Positions 1,673 to 50,132 of a stretch of 53,373 nucleotides of DNA are shown piece after piece (the first letter of the stretch is position 1; every line of letters begins with the position of its first letter). Location: NCBI GenBank assembly GCA_002308615.1, contig DBWC01000015.1, positions 1 to 53,373 on the forward strand, read 5' to 3'. This DNA is from Clostridiales bacterium UBA1248 (GTDB lineage Bacteria > Bacillota > Clostridia > Oscillospirales > CAG-272). The notes under the pieces were generated by a model that was not told the origin of the DNA, made no database searches, and saw only the letters and a program-made list of their open reading frames with translations. The position numbers were made by a program, and so were the translations under genes.

Positions 1673-2359
1673 TTACCCCGCATCAAATTCCACGATATCA
1701 ATAAAGATCTGTTTATGTAAATTATATGACTGCTCGTACTGTTTGCTTCCTTTGAGCTTGTTCAAAAGGCTTTCGGACAGAGTGCCGGAGCGCAGGCACA
1801 GAACAAGATCGCCTTTCCACTCATTAAACACTTCAAAATACTTTGCAAAATCCGTGCTTTTGAAATCTATACCGTATTCGTCTATCGCACCGTTCGGGTC
1901 TTTATCGCCGAAAACGTCGGAAAGCGGTGCGAAAACGCCGCTGTTTTTCAGATTTTCATACTGCTGTTTATCGAGGATATAAATAAACGAGTTGCCGGAC
2001 ACGACCTCTGTGGATAACAGCTTTGCGTTATCCGTATTGAGCTGATTGTCGTAGTAAATATCGTTTCTTACGTATTCCGCCGCCAGCTCGCTGTTTATCC
2101 ACAAAAGGTTGCGCACGGAGATGCCGCGGGAGCTCTTCTCCTCCTTCGTCGTATATACGGCGCGCACGGCGGACGTTATATCGTCTATCTGATTTGAGAT
2201 ATTGTCCGGCCCGGCGTACGTTATATAAACGTCGAACTTCTCCTGCGCACTGCACTGTACGACGCAGAAAATGACGATAAACAACACAAAGGCCGAGGCT
2301 AACACCGGCCATCTGTAATAATACCAATAGTTTTTGAACCAGTTTACTATTTTCTGCAT
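1673..2359 (-). CDS. Hypothetical membrane-anchored protein with an N-terminal TM helix
   Basis: 228-aa ORF with an N-terminal hydrophobic segment (WPVLASAFVLFIVIFCVV). It is tightly packed against the downstream gene. No family recognised. Confidence 0.6.
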   Translation of the reverse strand: MQKIVNWFKNYWYYYRWPVLASAFVLFIVIFCVVQCSAQEKFDVYITYAGPDNISNQIDDITSAVRAVYTTKEEKSSRGISVRNLLWINSELAAEYVRNDIYYDNQLNTDNAKLLSTEVVSGNSFIYILDKQQYENLKNSGVFAPLSDVFGDKDPNGAIDEYGIDFKSTDFAKYFEVFNEWKGDLVLCLRSGTLSESLLNKLKGSKQYEQSYNLHKQIFIDIVEFDAG

Positions 2360-44775: not shown

Positions 44776-45741
44776 TTAACTCTTCAATTTCTGCATCCGG
44801 ACGTCTCTGCCCGTGAACATATACGGCAGAAATTCACCGAAAAGACGGGAGACAACGCGGTCGTCATACATTGCAAGCAGTTCTGTATGAGATAAATTCG
44901 TATTTATAACGGTCGACAAGCCGGAATTTATCCTTTGGTTCAGCAGACTGTATAAATACGGTACGATGTCCCTGCCGTTCAGCTCCGTGCCGAGATCGTC
45001 TATGACGAGCAGCTCGCACTCGCCGTACTTCGCCGTCTTTGACGGCGTTTTGTCGTCGTTTTTAAAACGCTCGTCGCGGAAATCCGAAAACAGCTTTTCT
45101 GACGGGCAGTAAACGCAGTAATATCCGCGCTCTATGACCTTTTTGATTATTGAAACGGACAGATGCGTCTTGCCCAAGCCCGTGCCGCCGAAAAACAGCA
45201 AAGAACCCGAGCCTGTTCCGGAAAACGATTCGGCGTATTCTCTGGCTTTCCGCAGAACAAGCTCCATATTTGCTCTGTCTTCGCCCGAATAATACGACAG
45301 ATCGAAATTATCAAAGCTCATTTTGCCGCAAAGACCGGCTATACCGGCGGACTCGTACCCGGCTTTGATAAGTTCGGCGCGCATACAACCGCACATTTTG
45401 CCGTCTATGTTTCCCTCGTCGCGGCACAGCGGACATCTGTATTTTATATCAAGATAATCCTCCGGATAGCCGTTTTCGGAAAGCAGTTTTTTCTGACGGC
45501 GTATAAGCTCCTCCGTCTCGTATCTTATATCGGCGAGCCTTTGTTCGTAATTATCCCTGCCTTCAAGCGCGGCGGCGTAGATCTTAGGTCCGGTATCTCC
45601 CAGACTGTCGCATATTTTTTTCATCTCCGGAAGCTTTGAGCATACCTCCGTCTCGCGTCTTTTTAACTGATCCTCCGCGTTTTTCCGGCGCGCCTCAAAG
45701 CTTATCTTTACGTTTTTGTAATCTTCGCGGTTAAATGACAT
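44776..45741 (-). CDS. DnaC/DnaI-like AAA+ helicase loader
   Basis: 321 aa. A zinc-binding-like CPLC...CGC is present, along with Walker A (GGTGLGKTHL) and Walker B (LLVIDDLG). GGAGG lies upstream. Confidence 0.75.
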   Translation of the reverse strand: MSFNREDYKNVKISFEARRKNAEDQLKRRETEVCSKLPEMKKICDSLGDTGPKIYAAALEGRDNYEQRLADIRYETEELIRRQKKLLSENGYPEDYLDIKYRCPLCRDEGNIDGKMCGCMRAELIKAGYESAGIAGLCGKMSFDNFDLSYYSGEDRANMELVLRKAREYAESFSGTGSGSLLFFGGTGLGKTHLSVSIIKKVIERGYYCVYCPSEKLFSDFRDERFKNDDKTPSKTAKYGECELLVIDDLGTELNGRDIVPYLYSLLNQRINSGLSTVINTNLSHTELLAMYDDRVVSRLFGEFLPYMFTGRDVRMQKLKS

Positions 45742-45753
45742 AACGTCCTCCGT

Positions 45754-46740
45754 TTATTTTTTGCCGTAGCTGCGCTTTATGGCAGCTTCCATGAATTCGT
45801 CCGCGTCAAAGCTTTCTGCTTCCTTTGCGGCAGCTTTTTTGCTTTTGACGGATTTCTTCTGCTCAGGTTTGCCTGAAATATCGCCGTCTATCTGTTCCGT
45901 CGTGCGTATGCCCTGCTCGTACCAGCGTTTCATTATGGCGCCCGCGTAGTCGAGCGACGGCTCGTTGATGCTCTTTATCGTAAGCTCATACGCGCGGTTT
46001 ATAACGTTCATATCATATTCGTAGACCTCCGTCCACGTTTTTATAAGAGTTTTCTCGTGCGTGATGAGAGCGCGCTTGCCTATGCCGAACAGATCTCTTA
46101 TCCTCTGTGTTATCTCGTTTTTTCTGCGCTCGCGTTTTATGTATTCGTCGATCGCCTCCGGAGTTGTGATATCCGCGTCAAAAAGGCTGTACGCCGTACG
46201 CTCGACAACTCTGAAAGAAACGGAGCCGTTCACACGGCAGTATTCTATTATTTTTACTATACTTTCCGCGTTCAGCCGCAGATAGTCGTATAATGAAACG
46301 AGTATCATCGCCTCGTTCTGACTTACGGCTTTTCCCGTGAGTCTCGGAACGTCGCTGTTTATTATACGGTGCAGATCGGCGTTGCGCTCTATTATGCCCG
46401 CCGTCTCGTCCTTGCTGTATACCGGGCTGTCCGCCTTTACGCTCGCCTTGCTCTTTTTGGCTTTCGTATCGGTTTCCGGCTGTGATGCGGTCTTATCGTC
46501 CGATACGAAAAATCCGCGCGAGGTAAGCGACGCTATTGCTTCCTCTATCGCCGCCCACTGCATATCGAGCGTTTTTATGGCGTAAGCTCTGTTTGAATCC
46601 GTATCCGCGCGAAACGCCGGATCAAAGCAGACAAACAAAAGCACCTTAAGCTCGTCCGCGGACATGGAGCCGAGATTGCCGGCGACCGCTTCCGCAGGGA
46701 TATTTATTATTGAATCTTTATAATTAAGATTTATTTTCAT
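45754..46740 (-). CDS. DnaD-domain replication initiation / primosome protein
   Basis: 328 aa. Two DnaD-like segments are present: IVKIIEYCRVNG...VERTAYS and INRAYELTI...SLDYAGAIMKRWYEQGIRT. Confidence 0.7.
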   Translation of the reverse strand: MKINLNYKDSIINIPAEAVAGNLGSMSADELKVLLFVCFDPAFRADTDSNRAYAIKTLDMQWAAIEEAIASLTSRGFFVSDDKTASQPETDTKAKKSKASVKADSPVYSKDETAGIIERNADLHRIINSDVPRLTGKAVSQNEAMILVSLYDYLRLNAESIVKIIEYCRVNGSVSFRVVERTAYSLFDADITTPEAIDEYIKRERRKNEITQRIRDLFGIGKRALITHEKTLIKTWTEVYEYDMNVINRAYELTIKSINEPSLDYAGAIMKRWYEQGIRTTEQIDGDISGKPEQKKSVKSKKAAAKEAESFDADEFMEAAIKRSYGKK

Positions 46741-47461
46741 TCTTTTCTCTTTCCTGTTTCAGTGACATCTCATACGTCAGATACATGAGCGAATCCGCCG
46801 TACAGAGGTTTACAACGGGTATACCGAGCTTGTTTTCGTCTATTTCACACGGGCAGAAATTGAAGACGCCTTTTACGCCCGTGCCGTCAAGCAGAGATTC
46901 CAGCTCCGACGGATCGGATGAAGGTATGCACAAAACGGCGATATCTATTTTTCTGCTTTTACAGAACTGTTTAAGAGCGGATACGTCGGATACCGTGTTT
47001 TCGCCTATAACCGTGCCGATAACGTCTTTTGATATATCAAACACGCCCTTGACCCAGACGCCGCGCTGTTCGAGAAGCAGACTGTTTGACAGCGCTTTTC
47101 CGAGGTTGCCCGCGCCTATGATCACCGCGGTATATTTTTTGCCGACGCCGAGCCGCTCGCTTATCCCCGAATAAAGCCGCTTTACGTTATAACCGTAGCC
47201 GCGCTGACCGAGGCCTCCGAAATATTTAAGATCCTGCCGCAGCTGCGGCGCGCTTACGCCGGTTATATTTGATAGCTCATTTGACGATATTTTCATAACG
47301 TCGCGGTTCAAAAGCTCCCGCAGGCAGCGGAAATAACGCGGCAGTCTTCTTATGACCGCGTCGGGTATTTCATCCCCCGCGCGCGAAACCGTCATATCAG
47401 CTATCGCGGGGATGCCGATTATATCGAGATCTTCTTCATATGACTCTTTTTTTCTTCTCAT
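46724..47461 (-). CDS. rex: Redox-sensing transcriptional repressor Rex
   Basis: Matching segments are IPDAVIRRLPRYFRCLREL, LRQDLKYFGGLGQRGYGYNV and the Rossmann motif IIGAGNLGKAL. ATG 47461 shares one nt with the upstream TGA; the internal ATG 47395 (MTVSRAG) is an alternative start. Confidence 0.85.
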   Translation of the reverse strand: MRRKKESYEEDLDIIGIPAIADMTVSRAGDEIPDAVIRRLPRYFRCLRELLNRDVMKISSNELSNITGVSAPQLRQDLKYFGGLGQRGYGYNVKRLYSGISERLGVGKKYTAVIIGAGNLGKALSNSLLLEQRGVWVKGVFDISKDVIGTVIGENTVSDVSALKQFCKSRKIDIAVLCIPSSDPSELESLLDGTGVKGVFNFCPCEIDENKLGIPVVNLCTADSLMYLTYEMSLKQEREKNENKS

Positions 47462-48624
47462 CAAAGCTGCTCCGCAACGTACTGCGCGTATTCATCGCAG
47501 GTCGCTCCCGTGTCTCTGCCGGTTATGACGAGTTTTCTGTCCTCGTGCATGCAGAAATCAAGCGCCTTCGTAAGTCTTTCCGCCTCGTTCTGTTTGCCTA
47601 TGTGGTTCAACAGCATCGCCGTGGCGCGGAGCATCGAGCAGGGATCGGCGTATTTTGCTCTTCCCTCTTCGACCATTCTCGGAGCCGAGCCGTGTATCGC
47701 CTCGAACATCGCGTAGCGTTTGCCTATGTTAGCCGAGCCCGCAGTGCCGACGCCGCCCTGAAATTCCGCCGCCTCGTCCGTGATTATATCGCCGTAGAGG
47801 TTGGGCAAAATGAACACTTCAAAATCTCTTCTGCGCTTTTCGTCAACGAGCTTTGCGGTCATTATGTCGATAAACCACTCGTCAGTCTGTATCTCCGGGT
47901 ATTCTTTGCCTATCTCTTTGCAGATATTCAGGAATTTTCCGTCCGTCGTCTTTATAACGTTTGCTTTTGTGACGATAGATACGCGCTTTTTGCCGTTTTT
48001 GCGCGCGAATTCATACGCCAGCCGAGCTATTCTTTCCGTGCCCTCGGTCGTCGTTACGCAGAAATCGACCGCCAGATCGTCGGATACGTTTATGCCCTTG
48101 CTTCCGACGGCGTAAGAGCCCTCCGTGTTTTCGCGGAAGAACGTCCAGTCTATGCCCTGCGCCGGAACTTTAACGGGGCGTACGTTTGCAAACAGATCGA
48201 GTTTTTTTCTCATCATAACGTTTGCACTCTCTATATTGGGCAGACCGTCGCCGGCGTGCGGCGTCGTAGTCGGACCTTTCAGAATAACGTGGCAGCCGTA
48301 AAGCGTATCAAGCACGTCGTCCGGTATCGCCTTGCCGCAGGCTATCCTGTTCTCTATTGTGAGACCGTCTATATTTTTTATTTCTATTCTTCCACTGTCT
48401 ATATCATCCTTTAACAGAGCGCGCAAAACCTTTTCCGACGCCGCGGTGATGGTCGGACCTATACCGTCTCCGCCGCATACGCCTATAACGAGCCTGTCAA
48501 GTTTATCGTAATCCGTAAAGTCTTTTATTCTCTTGATATCGTCCGCTCTCTGCAGCTGTTCGTACATGAGCGCCCTGTATTTTTCGACAGCCGCCTCGAC
48601 CTGTGAGTCGTATTTGTTTTCCAT
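47461..48624 (-). CDS. Isocitrate/isopropylmalate dehydrogenase family enzyme, isocitrate-dehydrogenase-like
   Basis: The start was set to ATG 48624 (MENKYD) after GGAGG; the track start is a TTG 27 nt upstream. Motifs are GDGIGPT, SANVMMRKKLDLFANVRP and NLYGDIITDEAA. Confidence 0.75.
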   Translation of the reverse strand: MENKYDSQVEAAVEKYRALMYEQLQRADDIKRIKDFTDYDKLDRLVIGVCGGDGIGPTITAASEKVLRALLKDDIDSGRIEIKNIDGLTIENRIACGKAIPDDVLDTLYGCHVILKGPTTTPHAGDGLPNIESANVMMRKKLDLFANVRPVKVPAQGIDWTFFRENTEGSYAVGSKGINVSDDLAVDFCVTTTEGTERIARLAYEFARKNGKKRVSIVTKANVIKTTDGKFLNICKEIGKEYPEIQTDEWFIDIMTAKLVDEKRRRDFEVFILPNLYGDIITDEAAEFQGGVGTAGSANIGKRYAMFEAIHGSAPRMVEEGRAKYADPCSMLRATAMLLNHIGKQNEAERLTKALDFCMHEDRKLVITGRDTGATCDEYAQYVAEQL

Positions 48625-48744
48625 AATTCCCTTTGCCTCCGGATTTAACAATTATTTAACATTTTATATGTTGTGAGTTAATATGTCCTTTTTCGGTGTC
48701 CTGAAATAGTTTTTCTGTATAATTAGTCTCGTTAAGTATTTTAA

Positions 48745-49055
48745 TTATCCGCGTTAACTGAATAATTATCACACAAGGTAATCCACAAATTCCACAGGGT
48801 TATCCACAGTTTTTACGTTACCCGCGGTTTTCAAACCCTTGTAAAAGCCTTATTTAACGCTATTTTCATTATTTTTTGCCTTTTTTATGTGGAAAATTTC
48901 AAACCGCCGTTTTTAATGAAAGTTTGTGAAATTTTATACCGCCGCGCCGTTCACAAGGCTGAACAAGGCGGTTTTCGGCGCGACCTCTGTTACAATTTGT
49001 TCACAATAAAGGTTGATAAAACAGTACAAAATTCGCGCTGTGATTTTGTGAAAAA
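48745..49055. promoter_or_regulatory. DnaA-box cluster, AT-rich, between the tsaD 3' end and the 5' end of the IDH-like operon
   Basis: A perfect TTATCCACA lies at 48800-48808. One-mismatch matches to TTATNCACA lie at 48779-48787, 48888-48896 (reverse complement), 48997-49005 and 49047-49055 (reverse complement). Weaker cores lie at 48745-48753 and 48788-48796. Confidence 0.6.
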
Positions 49056-49103
49056 TAAACCAAATTTTTTTATTTTTCAAATGCCTCTTGACAGCGATTT
49101 TGC

Positions 49104-50132
49104 TTAATAGCTTTTCCAGTCGTCTTTTGACGACGGTTTCCCGTCAAGGCTCATATCGGAGTGCGCGCCCGCCTCATACTCGTATTTCGCGGCGGCGGCT
49201 ATCATCGCCCCGTTGTCTCCGCACAGCGAAAGCGGCGGCATGTGAAGCGTTACGCCGTTTTTTTCGCAGTACTGTGTCAAGGCGGCTCTTAAATGCGAGT
49301 TTGCAAGCACGCCGCCCGCGGCGAGCAGCGTTTTTATTCCGCTTTCCTTCAAAGCCCGGTCAAGCTGATATATGACGGATCCGCATATGACCTTTGTAAG
49401 CGAAGCGCAGACGTCTTCTCTGCTTATCGGTTCGTTTTTCATCTCCGCGGTGTTGAGCAGATTTATTATATACGTTTTAAGACCCGACAGAGAAAAGTTA
49501 TACGAGCCGTCCTTCATATGGACGGCGGGAAGCTTGTACGCGTTCGGGTCGCCCTTTGCGGCGAGCCTGTCCATCTCCGCGCCGCAGGGGTAAGACAGCC
49601 CCATCCTGCGCCCTATTTTGTCAAAAGCCTCGCCCACCGCGTCGTCAAGCGTGCGGCCGACGGTCTCAAAATCCGTATATGACGAAGCCTTGATCATAGA
49701 AGTATGACCGCCCGACGCGACGAACGCCATAAACGGCGTCTGTACTTTACCGCACAGATAATTCGCGGCGACGTGACCTTTTATGTGATTTACGCCGAGC
49801 AGCGGTTTGTCAAACGAATACGCGAAGCCCTTTGCGAAATTTACGCCGACAAGAAGCGCGCCGATAAGTCCCGGCTCTGTCGTCACCGCCACGCGGTCGA
49901 TCTGCTCCGGCGTTATGCCGGCGTCCGCTATCGCTTTATACGTAAGCGACGAGATCGCCTCTATATGCGCGCGGCTCGCTATTTCAGGTACCACGCCGCC
50001 GAATTTGGCGTGGACGTCCACCTGCGACGCAATTACGTTTGATAAAATTTTGAATTCATCCACACCGTCAGGCGACTCGACGACGGCGACCGCCGTTTCG
50101 TCACAGGACGATTCTATTGATAGATACAGCAT
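49104..50132 (-). CDS. tsaD: tRNA N6-adenosine threonylcarbamoyltransferase
   Basis: 342 aa. Matching segments are ESSCDETAVAVV, ASGGHT and CGDNGAMIA. Confidence 0.9.
   Translation of the reverse strand: MLYLSIESSCDETAVAVVESPDGVDEFKILSNVIASQVDVHAKFGGVVPEIASRAHIEAISSLTYKAIADAGITPEQIDRVAVTTEPGLIGALLVGVNFAKGFAYSFDKPLLGVNHIKGHVAANYLCGKVQTPFMAFVASGGHTSMIKASSYTDFETVGRTLDDAVGEAFDKIGRRMGLSYPCGAEMDRLAAKGDPNAYKLPAVHMKDGSYNFSLSGLKTYIINLLNTAEMKNEPISREDVCASLTKVICGSVIYQLDRALKESGIKTLLAAGGVLANSHLRAALTQYCEKNGVTLHMPPLSLCGDNGAMIAAAAKYEYEAGAHSDMSLDGKPSSKDDWKSY

What the first reader, a model, noticed from the sequence alone, without database searches (positions are those of the whole stretch)
48745..49055. DnaA-box cluster outside any visible oriC context, next to tsaD and upstream of an operon ending in dnaD/dnaC-like genes
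Within about 310 bp there is one perfect TTATCCACA (48800-48808). Four one-mismatch matches to TTATNCACA are also present. They are TAATCCACA at 48779-48787, TGTGGAAAA at 48888-48896, TTGTTCACA at 48997-49005 and TGTGAAAAA at 49047-49055. Degenerate cores lie at 48745-48753 and 48788-48796. My hand estimate for a random 310-bp stretch is well below one site at this stringency. The region is AT-rich. It is the only large non-coding gap between the tsaD stop (49104) and the start of the minus-strand operon (IDH-like, rex, DnaD-domain, dnaC/dnaI-like). Two readings are possible. DnaA may regulate the helicase-loader operon transcriptionally. Alternatively this is a DnaA-titrating cluster like the B. 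subtilis DnaA-box clusters, one of which I recall lies beside gcp (tsaD). If that memory is right, the tsaD-adjacent position would be conserved across distant Firmicutes.
Basis: partly seen in the sequence, partly recalled or inferred. Interest (0 to 1): 0.6.

Follow-up and report, generated by a model that had tools for sequence, protein, structure and literature searches.

The report
Conserved DnaA-box cluster behind tsaD
The non-coding gap after the tRNA-modification gene tsaD holds a real, conserved cluster of binding sites for the replication initiator DnaA; it is the rumen-Clostridia counterpart of a known but unexplained Bacillus subtilis site, and here it also lies in front of the operon that encodes the helicase-loading proteins.

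Summary
The 477-bp, 34% G+C gap 48627-49103 holds six matches to TTATNCACA (at most one mismatch). Local dinucleotide shuffles give 0.66, and the window's other gaps give 0.71 per 477 nt.

The core is three co-oriented boxes at 48779-48808. On the gene strand they read TGTGGATAA-CCC-TGTGGAATT-TGTGGATTA (9+3+9+9). This is the best-conserved 30 nt of the gap in six related rumen genomes.

The same layout recurs downstream of tsaD, always co-oriented with it, in Clostridia and in Brevibacillus. Bacillus relatives carry an equivalent cluster between tsaD and the convergent ABC-F gene.

It is not oriC: there is no dnaA and no skew switch.

The regulatory reading also has support. The gap is the only intergenic space ahead of a tightly packed IDH-like/rex/dnaD/dnaC-like operon. 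The array-to-promoter distance is fixed at 122-124 nt. Separately, 23 of 49 sampled dnaD-dnaC operons without tsaD nearby carry their own DnaA-box cluster.

DnaA binding and function remain untested. Verdict: new member of a known kind, moderate interest.

The parts
48779..48808 (-). Core triple DnaA-box array. On the gene (-) strand it reads TGTGGATAA-CCC-TGTGGAATT-TGTGGATTA (9+3+9+9). On the + strand it reads TAATCCACA, AATTCCACA, ggg, TTATCCACA.
   Evidence: It is the most conserved 30-nt window of the gap in six genomes, with identity 0.89 against 0.66 for the rest; 20 of its 30 columns are invariant. The same layout lies downstream of tsaD in 23 other genomes.
48888..48896 (-). DnaA box TTTTCCACA (exact to TTWTNCACA), inverted relative to the core array.
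   Evidence: At the homologous place the relatives have TGTGGAA or the palindrome TGTGGAATTCCACA.
48997..49005 (+). Weak box TTGTTCACA, one mismatch to TTATNCACA.
   Evidence: It is partly conserved as T.T.AA.A in alignment A1.
49047..49055 (-). Box TTTTTCACA, exact to TTWTNCACA.
   Evidence: The CACAAA core is invariant in six genomes; two relatives have TCCACAAAA or GCCACAAAA here.
48745..48753 (+). Degenerate box TTATCCGCG (two mismatches); membership is doubtful.
   Evidence: Only G.ATAA is loosely conserved. It overlaps a weak promoter-like match, GTGATA-17-GATAAT.
48661..48689 (-). Predicted sigma-70-type promoter of the downstream operon: AGGACA, 17-nt spacer, TAAAAT. Relatives have T(T/C)GACA as the first hexamer.
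   Evidence: Consensus scan. It lies in the second most conserved block of the gap. Its distance from box 3 of the array is 122-124 nt in all six genomes. No transcription start data are available.
49104..50132 (-). tsaD (gcp), the upstream neighbour. The array is co-oriented with it and starts 296 nt after its stop codon.
   Evidence: Pfam TsaD 2.3e-87. NCBIfam TIGR03723 scores 390.8 bits, above the cutoff of 296. Distance.
44776..48624 (-). Downstream operon of four genes: IDH-family dehydrogenase (47461-48624), rex (46724-47464), DnaD-domain protein (45754-46740) and DnaC/DnaI-type AAA+ loader (44776-45741). Gene junctions overlap by 4 and 17 nt or are separated by 12 nt.
   Evidence: The gap 48627-49103 is the only intergenic space upstream of the loader genes.

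Best explanation
The gap holds a selected, non-origin DnaA-box cluster of the type linked to tsaD. It is the positional and architectural counterpart, in an uncultured rumen Clostridia bacterium, of B. subtilis DBC[gcp-ydiF].

**Inferred mechanism.** DnaA, preferentially the ATP form, nucleates on the perfect box and spreads cooperatively over the three closely spaced, co-oriented boxes at 48779-48808. The outlying boxes at 48888, 48997 and 49047 add to the complex.

**Likely local consequence in this lineage.** The complex sits about 90 nt upstream of the -35 element of the only promoter region serving the IDH-like/rex/dnaD/dnaC-like operon. DnaA occupancy therefore probably also tunes the supply of helicase-loading proteins. 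I put about 40% on this part.

**What is shown.**
- The boxes and their statistical excess.
- Their conservation, layout and orientation.
- Their linkage to tsaD in many Bacillota.

**What is inferred.**
- That DnaA binds the cluster.
- That binding prefers ATP-DnaA.
- That binding has any effect on transcription or on replication initiation.
For: **Excess over chance.**

**Purifying selection.** The array is the best-conserved 30 nt of a gap that is otherwise 66% identical across six genomes whose TsaD proteins are 76-92% identical to the window's.

**Linkage to tsaD.**
- 23 of 120 genome hits to TGTGGA-N6-TGTGGA-N3-TGTGGA lie 44-615 nt downstream of tsaD, and all 23 are co-oriented.
- In 76 tsaD loci chosen without reference to boxes, the relaxed triple occurs co-oriented downstream in 8, against 1 hit in 888 kb elsewhere.
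- Box density downstream of tsaD is 5.6 times that elsewhere.
- The cluster is present in 11 of 70 loci that have no loader operon downstream.
- The downstream gene varies: murJ, a convergent symporter, tyrS, an SLT transglycosylase.

**Match to the Bacillus site.** In B. thuringiensis, 8 boxes lie between tsaD and a convergent ABC-F gene, the ydiF position. They include an abutting pair and a pair with 12-nt spacing, co-oriented with tsaD.

**Published binding at the B. subtilis site.**
- In vivo binding: PMC2533591.
- In vitro Kd 0.15 uM with ATP against 0.33 uM with ADP, and a 16-fold ATP preference at 55 nM: PMC4447404.

**DnaA specificity.** The base-contacting residues of DnaA are conserved in Firmicutes including clostridia (PMC7561715).

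**Support for the regulatory part.**
- Tight operon structure.
- Array-to-promoter distance of 122-124 nt in six genomes, while the tsaD-to-array distance varies by about 19 nt.
- In L007/L008, boxes lie in the spacer and just downstream of the predicted dnaD promoter.
- 23 of 49 sampled dnaD-dnaC operons without tsaD have their own cluster, and no clusters occur elsewhere in those loci.
- B. subtilis dnaB is reported to be repressed by DnaA (cited in PMC2533591).
Against: - There are no binding data for this organism, and no usable RNA data.
- The window's cluster is weaker than typical members. It has one perfect box, units 2 and 3 are degenerate, and it lacks the fourth co-oriented box that many relatives carry 35-45 nt upstream.
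- In B. subtilis, deleting DBC[gcp-ydiF] alone left the oriC/terC ratio unchanged (0.99). Re-inserting it did not rescue the strain lacking all six clusters (1.35) (PMC3245932). A titration role is therefore unproven even in the model organism.
- The array lies roughly 90-120 nt upstream of the predicted -35 and does not overlap the promoter. The promoter itself is only a consensus match.
- The tsaD-linked cluster is patchy: about 20% of sampled Bacillota tsaD loci carry it.
- Related genomes carry TGTTCAAAA-type units at the same place. These are poor DnaA boxes.
Confidence: 0.8

Rival explanations
1. The cluster is primarily a transcriptional operator. DnaA represses or activates the IDH-like/rex/dnaD/dnaC-like operon, and the position next to tsaD is incidental synteny. 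This is not fully exclusive of the best explanation.
For: - The gap is the only intergenic space ahead of the loader genes.
- The array-to-promoter spacing is fixed at 122-124 nt.
- The synteny tsaD, cluster, (IDH), rex, dnaD, dnaC recurs in several clades: L099, L116, L179, L180; L007/L008 have tsaD, boxes, dnaD, dnaC without rex.
- Independent clusters lie upstream of dnaD-dnaC in 23 of 49 loci without tsaD.
- There is precedent in DnaA-repressed dnaB of B. subtilis.
Against: - Layout and orientation follow the tsaD type, with TGTGGATAA read along the gene sense. The tsaD-independent dnaD-dnaC clusters read mostly TTATCCACA along the gene sense.
- The same array persists behind tsaD where the next gene is murJ, tyrS or a convergent gene.
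- The boxes do not overlap the predicted promoter.
Confidence: 0.35
2. The cluster is a replication origin or part of one, either a split oriC or a secondary origin.
For: There is a cluster of DnaA boxes in AT-rich DNA, and genes for helicase-loading proteins lie nearby.
Against: - There is no dnaA or dnaN in the window.
- GC skew keeps the same sign on both sides, and the flanking genes on both sides of the gap point the same way.
- The Firmicutes origin context is rnpA-rpmH-dnaA-dnaN (PMC7561715).
- The homologous B. subtilis site is not an origin.
Confidence: 0.02
3. The motifs are chance matches in AT-rich DNA, or they belong to another element such as Rex operators or a structured RNA.
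For: - The gap is 34% G+C.
- Several of the listed boxes are TTCACA or TGTGAA words that resemble Rex half-sites.
- rex is in the downstream operon.
Against: - Shuffles and the other gaps of the window reject chance.
- No Rex palindrome is found with fewer than 3 mismatches.
- No Rfam family comes near its threshold.
- Folding of the tsaD-proximal part is unremarkable, z = -1.76.
- Conservation is concentrated on the TGTGGA cores.
Confidence: 0.04

Closest known systems
Bacillus subtilis DnaA-box cluster DBC[gcp-ydiF] (Ishikawa 2007, PMC2533591; Okumura 2012, PMC3245932; Smith and Grossman 2015, PMC4447404)
   Same: - It is a non-origin cluster of DnaA boxes immediately downstream of tsaD (gcp).
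- Its boxes are mostly co-oriented with tsaD.
- It is built from abutting pairs and pairs with 12-nt spacing, as seen in the Bacillus relatives L212, L256 and L204.
- It is conserved among relatives.
   Different: - The window has 1 perfect box, against 4 perfect among 8 boxes in B. subtilis.
- The boxes are spread over about 310 bp with a 30-bp core.
- The downstream gene is co-directional, an operon with rex and the loader genes, not a convergent ABC-F gene.
- Binding is untested here.
DnaA-controlled promoters of B. subtilis (dnaA, sda, ywlC, yydA, and dnaB as reported by Goranov 2005, cited in PMC2533591)
   Same: Several DnaA boxes lie in a promoter-bearing gap upstream of replication genes. 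dnaB of B. subtilis encodes a DnaD-like (DnaB_2 domain) co-loader and sits in an operon with dnaI.
   Different: Here the array lies about 90-120 nt upstream of a promoter that is only predicted. No expression data exist. Two unrelated genes (IDH-like and rex) come first in the operon.
E. coli datA and DARS1/DARS2
   Same: They are non-coding DnaA-box clusters outside oriC that act on the DnaA pool, with fixed box geometry.
   Different: There is no evidence here for IHF or Fis sites, for ATP hydrolysis or for nucleotide exchange. The lineage and the layout differ. This is a functional analogy only.
DnaA-box clusters upstream of dnaD-dnaC in Lachnospiraceae-type genomes
   Same: They use the same building blocks (abutting boxes, the 9+3+9+9 layout) and lie ahead of the same type of loader operon.
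   Different: They lie after a murC-like gene, not tsaD. They form two arrays 100-200 nt apart. Their boxes are near-perfect and read TTATCCACA along the gene sense, which is the opposite orientation.

Membership tests
Non-oriC DnaA-box cluster of the tsaD/gcp-linked type (DBC[gcp-ydiF]) | Several DnaA boxes (TTATNCACA, at most one mismatch) packed in one intergenic region, in excess of chance | tested here: met
   Six boxes against 0.66 expected. Other gaps of the window give 0.71 per 477 nt.
Non-oriC DnaA-box cluster of the tsaD/gcp-linked type (DBC[gcp-ydiF]) | Lies directly downstream of tsaD (gcp) | tested here: met
   tsaD scores above the NCBIfam cutoff. The array starts 296 nt after its stop codon and is co-oriented with it.
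Non-oriC DnaA-box cluster of the tsaD/gcp-linked type (DBC[gcp-ydiF]) | Conserved at this position in related and distant genomes | tested here: met
   Conservation is patchy, about 20% of sampled Bacillota tsaD loci.
Non-oriC DnaA-box cluster of the tsaD/gcp-linked type (DBC[gcp-ydiF]) | Not part of oriC | tested here: met
   No dnaA in the window and no skew switch.
Non-oriC DnaA-box cluster of the tsaD/gcp-linked type (DBC[gcp-ydiF]) | Lies between the 3' ends of convergent genes, so no promoter is nearby (the B. subtilis arrangement) | tested here: not met
   The downstream operon is co-directional and its predicted promoter lies in the same gap. This feature also varies among the other members.
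Non-oriC DnaA-box cluster of the tsaD/gcp-linked type (DBC[gcp-ydiF]) | Stable DnaA binding in vivo or in vitro, with a preference for ATP-DnaA | not testable with these tools
   Known only for B. subtilis.
Non-oriC DnaA-box cluster of the tsaD/gcp-linked type (DBC[gcp-ydiF]) | Proximity to oriC on the chromosome | not testable with these tools
DnaA-regulated promoter | DnaA boxes within or next to a mapped promoter | tested here: inconclusive
   The promoter is predicted only. The array lies about 90 nt upstream of the -35, with spacing fixed at 122-124 nt in six genomes. No RNA data are available.
DnaA-regulated promoter | Expression changes with DnaA level or with box mutation | not testable with these tools
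   This needs an experiment.
Chromosomal origin oriC | Adjacency to dnaA/dnaN, an unwinding element with DnaA-trios, and a switch of GC skew and gene orientation | tested here: not met
Rex operator | An 18-bp palindrome, TTGTGAA-N4-TTCACAA or TTGTTAA-N4-TTAACAA | tested here: not met
   The best matches in the gap have 3-4 mismatches.

The most novel reading that the evidence does not exclude
The tsaD-linked cluster may be the surviving operator of an ancestral Bacillota gene arrangement: tsaD, DnaA-box cluster, rex, dnaD, dnaC/dnaI. In that arrangement DnaA fed back on the supply of its own helicase-loading partners. Several Clostridia clades, including this window, would still use it that way.

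In Bacilli the loader genes moved away, while tsaD, the cluster and a nearby rex stayed. That would explain why B. subtilis DBC[gcp-ydiF] sits, apparently pointlessly, between convergent genes.

Together with the independent clusters ahead of dnaD-dnaC in 23 of 49 sampled loci, this would make DnaA control of helicase-loader expression a widespread and so far undescribed circuit in Clostridia.
Probability: 0.2. Interest if true: 0.7.

Novelty: new member of a known kind. Interest (0 to 1): 0.5.

Why it matters
DBC[gcp-ydiF] is one of the strongest DnaA-binding sites in B. subtilis and among the most ATP-DnaA-selective of its eight high-affinity regions. Its function has been unknown since 2007.

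This window, with the cross-genome sampling done here, shows three things:
- The site is not peculiar to Bacillus. It is kept behind tsaD, with fixed orientation and a fixed three-box geometry, in distant Clostridia.
- In several clades it sits directly in front of the genes for the helicase loaders that DnaA recruits.
- dnaD-dnaC operons located elsewhere often carry their own DnaA-box clusters.

Together these give a concrete, testable hypothesis: DnaA feeds back on helicase-loader expression. They also offer a possible evolutionary explanation for an orphan site in the model organism.

No paper in the held library links DnaA boxes with tsaD, or describes DnaA boxes upstream of dnaD in Clostridia. 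A 2026 review still lists the six clusters without a mechanism.

Tried and rejected
I substituted window-level background and cross-genome sampling.

**Alternatives tested and rejected**
- Rex operators as an explanation for the TTCACA/TGTGAA words: no palindrome with fewer than 3 mismatches.
- A structured RNA: Rfam gave only far sub-threshold hits, and folding gave z = -1.76.
- oriC: rejected by skew, gene orientation and the absence of dnaA.

**Evidence sought but not obtained**
- Transcript evidence: only DNA metagenomes, plus one run of unknown type stored as low-depth contigs. No start sites could be read.

**Partly followed, unresolved**
- Relatives carry TGTTCAAAA-type units at the homologous place. 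I asked whether these reflect an altered DnaA specificity. A scan found 39 loci, 12 of them behind tsaD and 27 elsewhere, none next to dnaA. This remains unresolved.
- L078 has the triple array about 1 kb from the 3' end of dnaA. This was not informative.

**Limits on the surveys**
The dnaD-dnaC survey therefore rests on one sample of 49 usable loci.

Full report
**1. What is there**

The window has a 477-bp gap of 34% G+C at 48627-49103.
- On one side is tsaD (49104-50132, - strand; NCBIfam TIGR03723 scores 391 bits against a cutoff of 296).
- On the other is a four-gene operon on the same strand:
  - an isocitrate/isopropylmalate-dehydrogenase-family gene (47461-48624)
  - rex (46724-47464)
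  - a DnaD-domain gene (45754-46740)
  - a DnaC/DnaI-type AAA+ gene (44776-45741)
- The operon genes overlap by 4 and 17 nt or are 12 nt apart. The gap is therefore the only intergenic space ahead of the loader genes.

**2. More than chance**

- Dinucleotide-preserving shuffles of the gap give 0.66 sites (TTATNCACA, at most one mismatch) against 6 observed. They give 0.13 against 3 for the strict consensus.
- All other gaps of the window give 0.71 sites per 477 nt.
- Three of the nine exact TTWTNCACA matches in the 53 kb lie in this gap.
- Contigs from an independent metagenome run reproduce the sequence.

**3. Anatomy**

- The core is three boxes on one strand at 48779-48808. Read along the gene strand they are TGTGGATAA-CCC-TGTGGAATT-TGTGGATTA: 9 nt, a 3-nt spacer, 9 nt, and 9 nt abutting.
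- Outlying boxes lie at 48888 (inverted), 48997 and 49047.
- A sigma-70-like promoter is predicted at 48689-48661 (-): AGGACA, 17 nt, TAAAAT. Relatives have T(T/C)GACA as the first hexamer.
- No terminator-like site passed the scan.
- A hairpin at about 48938-48972 (-), followed by UAUAAAAUUU, may be a weak tsaD terminator.

**4. Not an origin**

- GC skew is negative throughout the window.
- The genes on both sides of the gap are on the - strand.
- No DnaA homologue is encoded in the window.

**5. Conservation in close relatives**

Five rumen metagenome-assembled genomes whose TsaD is 76-92% identical to the window's share the synteny. In the alignment of the gap:
- The 30-nt array is the best-conserved 30-nt stretch, with identity 0.89 against 0.66 for the rest. 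It scores above the promoter block.
- The distance from box 3 to the promoter block is 122-124 nt in all six genomes.
- The distance from tsaD to the array varies by about 19 nt.

**6. Linkage to tsaD across Bacillota**

*Pattern scan.* I scanned one genome per species for TGTGGA-N6-TGTGGA-N3-TGTGGA.
- 23 loci have tsaD in the same 8-kb block.
- In all 23 the array lies 44-615 nt downstream of tsaD and is co-oriented with it.
- The taxa include Brevibacillus reuszeri (Bacilli), Alkaliphilus, Carboxydocellales, Clostridiaceae, Oscillospiraceae and Dysosmobacter.
- Many also carry a fourth co-oriented box 35-45 nt upstream of the array.
- Other hits lie next to dnaA in Actinobacteria. This fits DnaA as the binding protein.

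*Sample chosen by TsaD similarity, not by boxes.* This gave 76 usable loci.
- 15 have at least 3 boxes within 600 nt downstream of tsaD.
- Box density is 2.15 per kb there and 0.38 per kb elsewhere.
- A relaxed 9+3+9+9 triple is found co-oriented downstream in 8 loci, against 1 hit in 888 kb elsewhere.

*Bacillus relatives.* B. thuringiensis has eight boxes between tsaD and a convergent ABC-F gene, which is the ydiF position. They include an abutting pair and a pair with 12-nt spacing.

*Independence from the downstream gene.* The cluster is found whatever gene follows: murJ, tyrS, convergent transporters or hydrolases. It is present in 11 of 70 loci with no loader operon downstream.

**7. What is published**

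- Ishikawa et al. 2007 found stable DnaA binding at gcp-ydiF in B. subtilis. [quoted passage not shown]
- Okumura et al. 2012 showed that deleting all six clusters causes early initiation. Deleting this one alone does nothing, and re-inserting it does not rescue the six-fold deletion.
- Smith and Grossman 2015 measured a Kd of 0.15 uM with ATP and 0.33 uM with ADP, and a 16-fold ATP preference at low DnaA concentration.
- DnaA's base-contacting residues are conserved in Firmicutes, including clostridia.
- I found no paper that links DnaA boxes with tsaD, or with dnaD promoters in Clostridia. A 2026 review adds nothing on mechanism.

**8. The loader-operon reading**

Several observations support a regulatory role in addition to the tsaD linkage.
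- The operon is tightly packed and the array-to-promoter spacing is fixed.
- In a more distant clade (L007/L008, TsaD 54% identical) the order is tsaD, boxes, dnaD, dnaC, without the IDH-like gene or rex. One box lies in the spacer of the predicted promoter and another just downstream of it.
- The order tsaD, cluster, (IDH), rex, dnaD, dnaC recurs in L099, L116, L179 and L180.
- In a sample of dnaC/dnaI-like loci from metagenomes, 23 of the 49 with enough upstream DNA carry a cluster of at least 3 boxes just upstream of dnaD.
  - None of these has tsaD nearby, and no clusters occur elsewhere in those loci.
  - Typically a perfect abutting pair follows a murC-like gene, and a second pair or triple lies about 80-180 nt before the dnaD start codon (10 of the cluster-bearing loci inspected), ahead of a TGcTATAAT promoter.
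  - These arrays read TTATCCACA along the gene sense, opposite to the tsaD type. They are therefore not simply the same element carried along.

**9. Verdict**

- The element is best filed as a new member, in rumen Clostridia, of the known tsaD-linked DnaA-box cluster. In this lineage it probably also acts as an upstream operator of the helicase-loader operon.
- DnaA binding, nucleotide preference and any effect on transcription or initiation are inferred, not shown.

Earlier notes from this scan describe the same element in other genomes. They agree with my reading. I did not count them as evidence, and I tested their claims independently here.

Noticed in passing
L009-L017 downstream of tsaD; L139-L177: In a neighbouring Clostridia lineage the homologous place behind tsaD holds the same 9+3+9+9 layout with poor DnaA boxes: TGTTCAAAA-CTC-TGTTCAAAA-TGTTAA(A/T)AA. 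L013 and L007 are intermediates that mix TGTTGA and TGTGGA units. A scan for this variant found 39 loci. Twelve lie behind tsaD. The other 27 lie at other sites with varied neighbours (OGG/SpoIIE, PadR and others), and many of them also have an inverted GTTTTGAACA and a TGTTTATAA nearby. None is next to dnaA. It is unresolved whether DnaA specificity has shifted in this lineage or another protein binds.
   Followed up: partly
L060, L070, L134, L269-L330 (metagenome and genome loci): DnaA-box clusters with near-perfect abutting TTATCCACA pairs and triples lie between a murC-like gene and dnaD-dnaC operons in 23 of 49 sampled loci. I did not find this described in the held literature.
   Followed up: partly
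window 2009-2017 (-) and 2095-2103 (+): Two perfect TTATCCACA boxes lie 78 nt apart in inverted orientation, inside an ORF (1673-2359, - strand, 228 aa) that has no Pfam or NCBIfam match. About 0.4 perfect boxes are expected by chance in the whole window.
   Followed up: no
window 49088-49093: TTGACA on the + strand (TGTCAA on the gene strand), starting 11 nt after the tsaD stop codon, is invariant in all six related genomes. No suitably spaced -10 element follows. Its function is unknown.
   Followed up: no
window 48643-48662: A conserved direct repeat on the gene strand, ATGTTAAAT-AAT-TGTTAAAT, overlaps the 3' end of the predicted -10 and continues downstream of it, in the leader of the IDH-like gene. 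It is a direct repeat rather than a palindrome, so it is not Rex-like.
   Followed up: partly
window 48938-48972 (-): A hairpin (CCGCC...GGCGG) followed by UAUAAAAUUU lies between tsaD and the array. It may be a weak tsaD terminator, but it did not pass the terminator scan.
   Followed up: partly
L021, L039, L056, L059, L079, L080, L093, L095, L119, L130, L136, L138: In Mycobacterium, Nocardia, Rhodococcus and related Actinobacteria, the same three-box pattern recurs next to DUF4328 and rhodanese-domain genes. This looks like a conserved non-origin cluster of that phylum.
   Followed up: no
L212, L231, L242 (Bacilli); L179, L180, L116, L262 (Clostridia): rex lies within about 0.2-3 kb downstream of tsaD in both Bacilli and Clostridia, so the tsaD-rex neighbourhood appears to be old.
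   Followed up: partly
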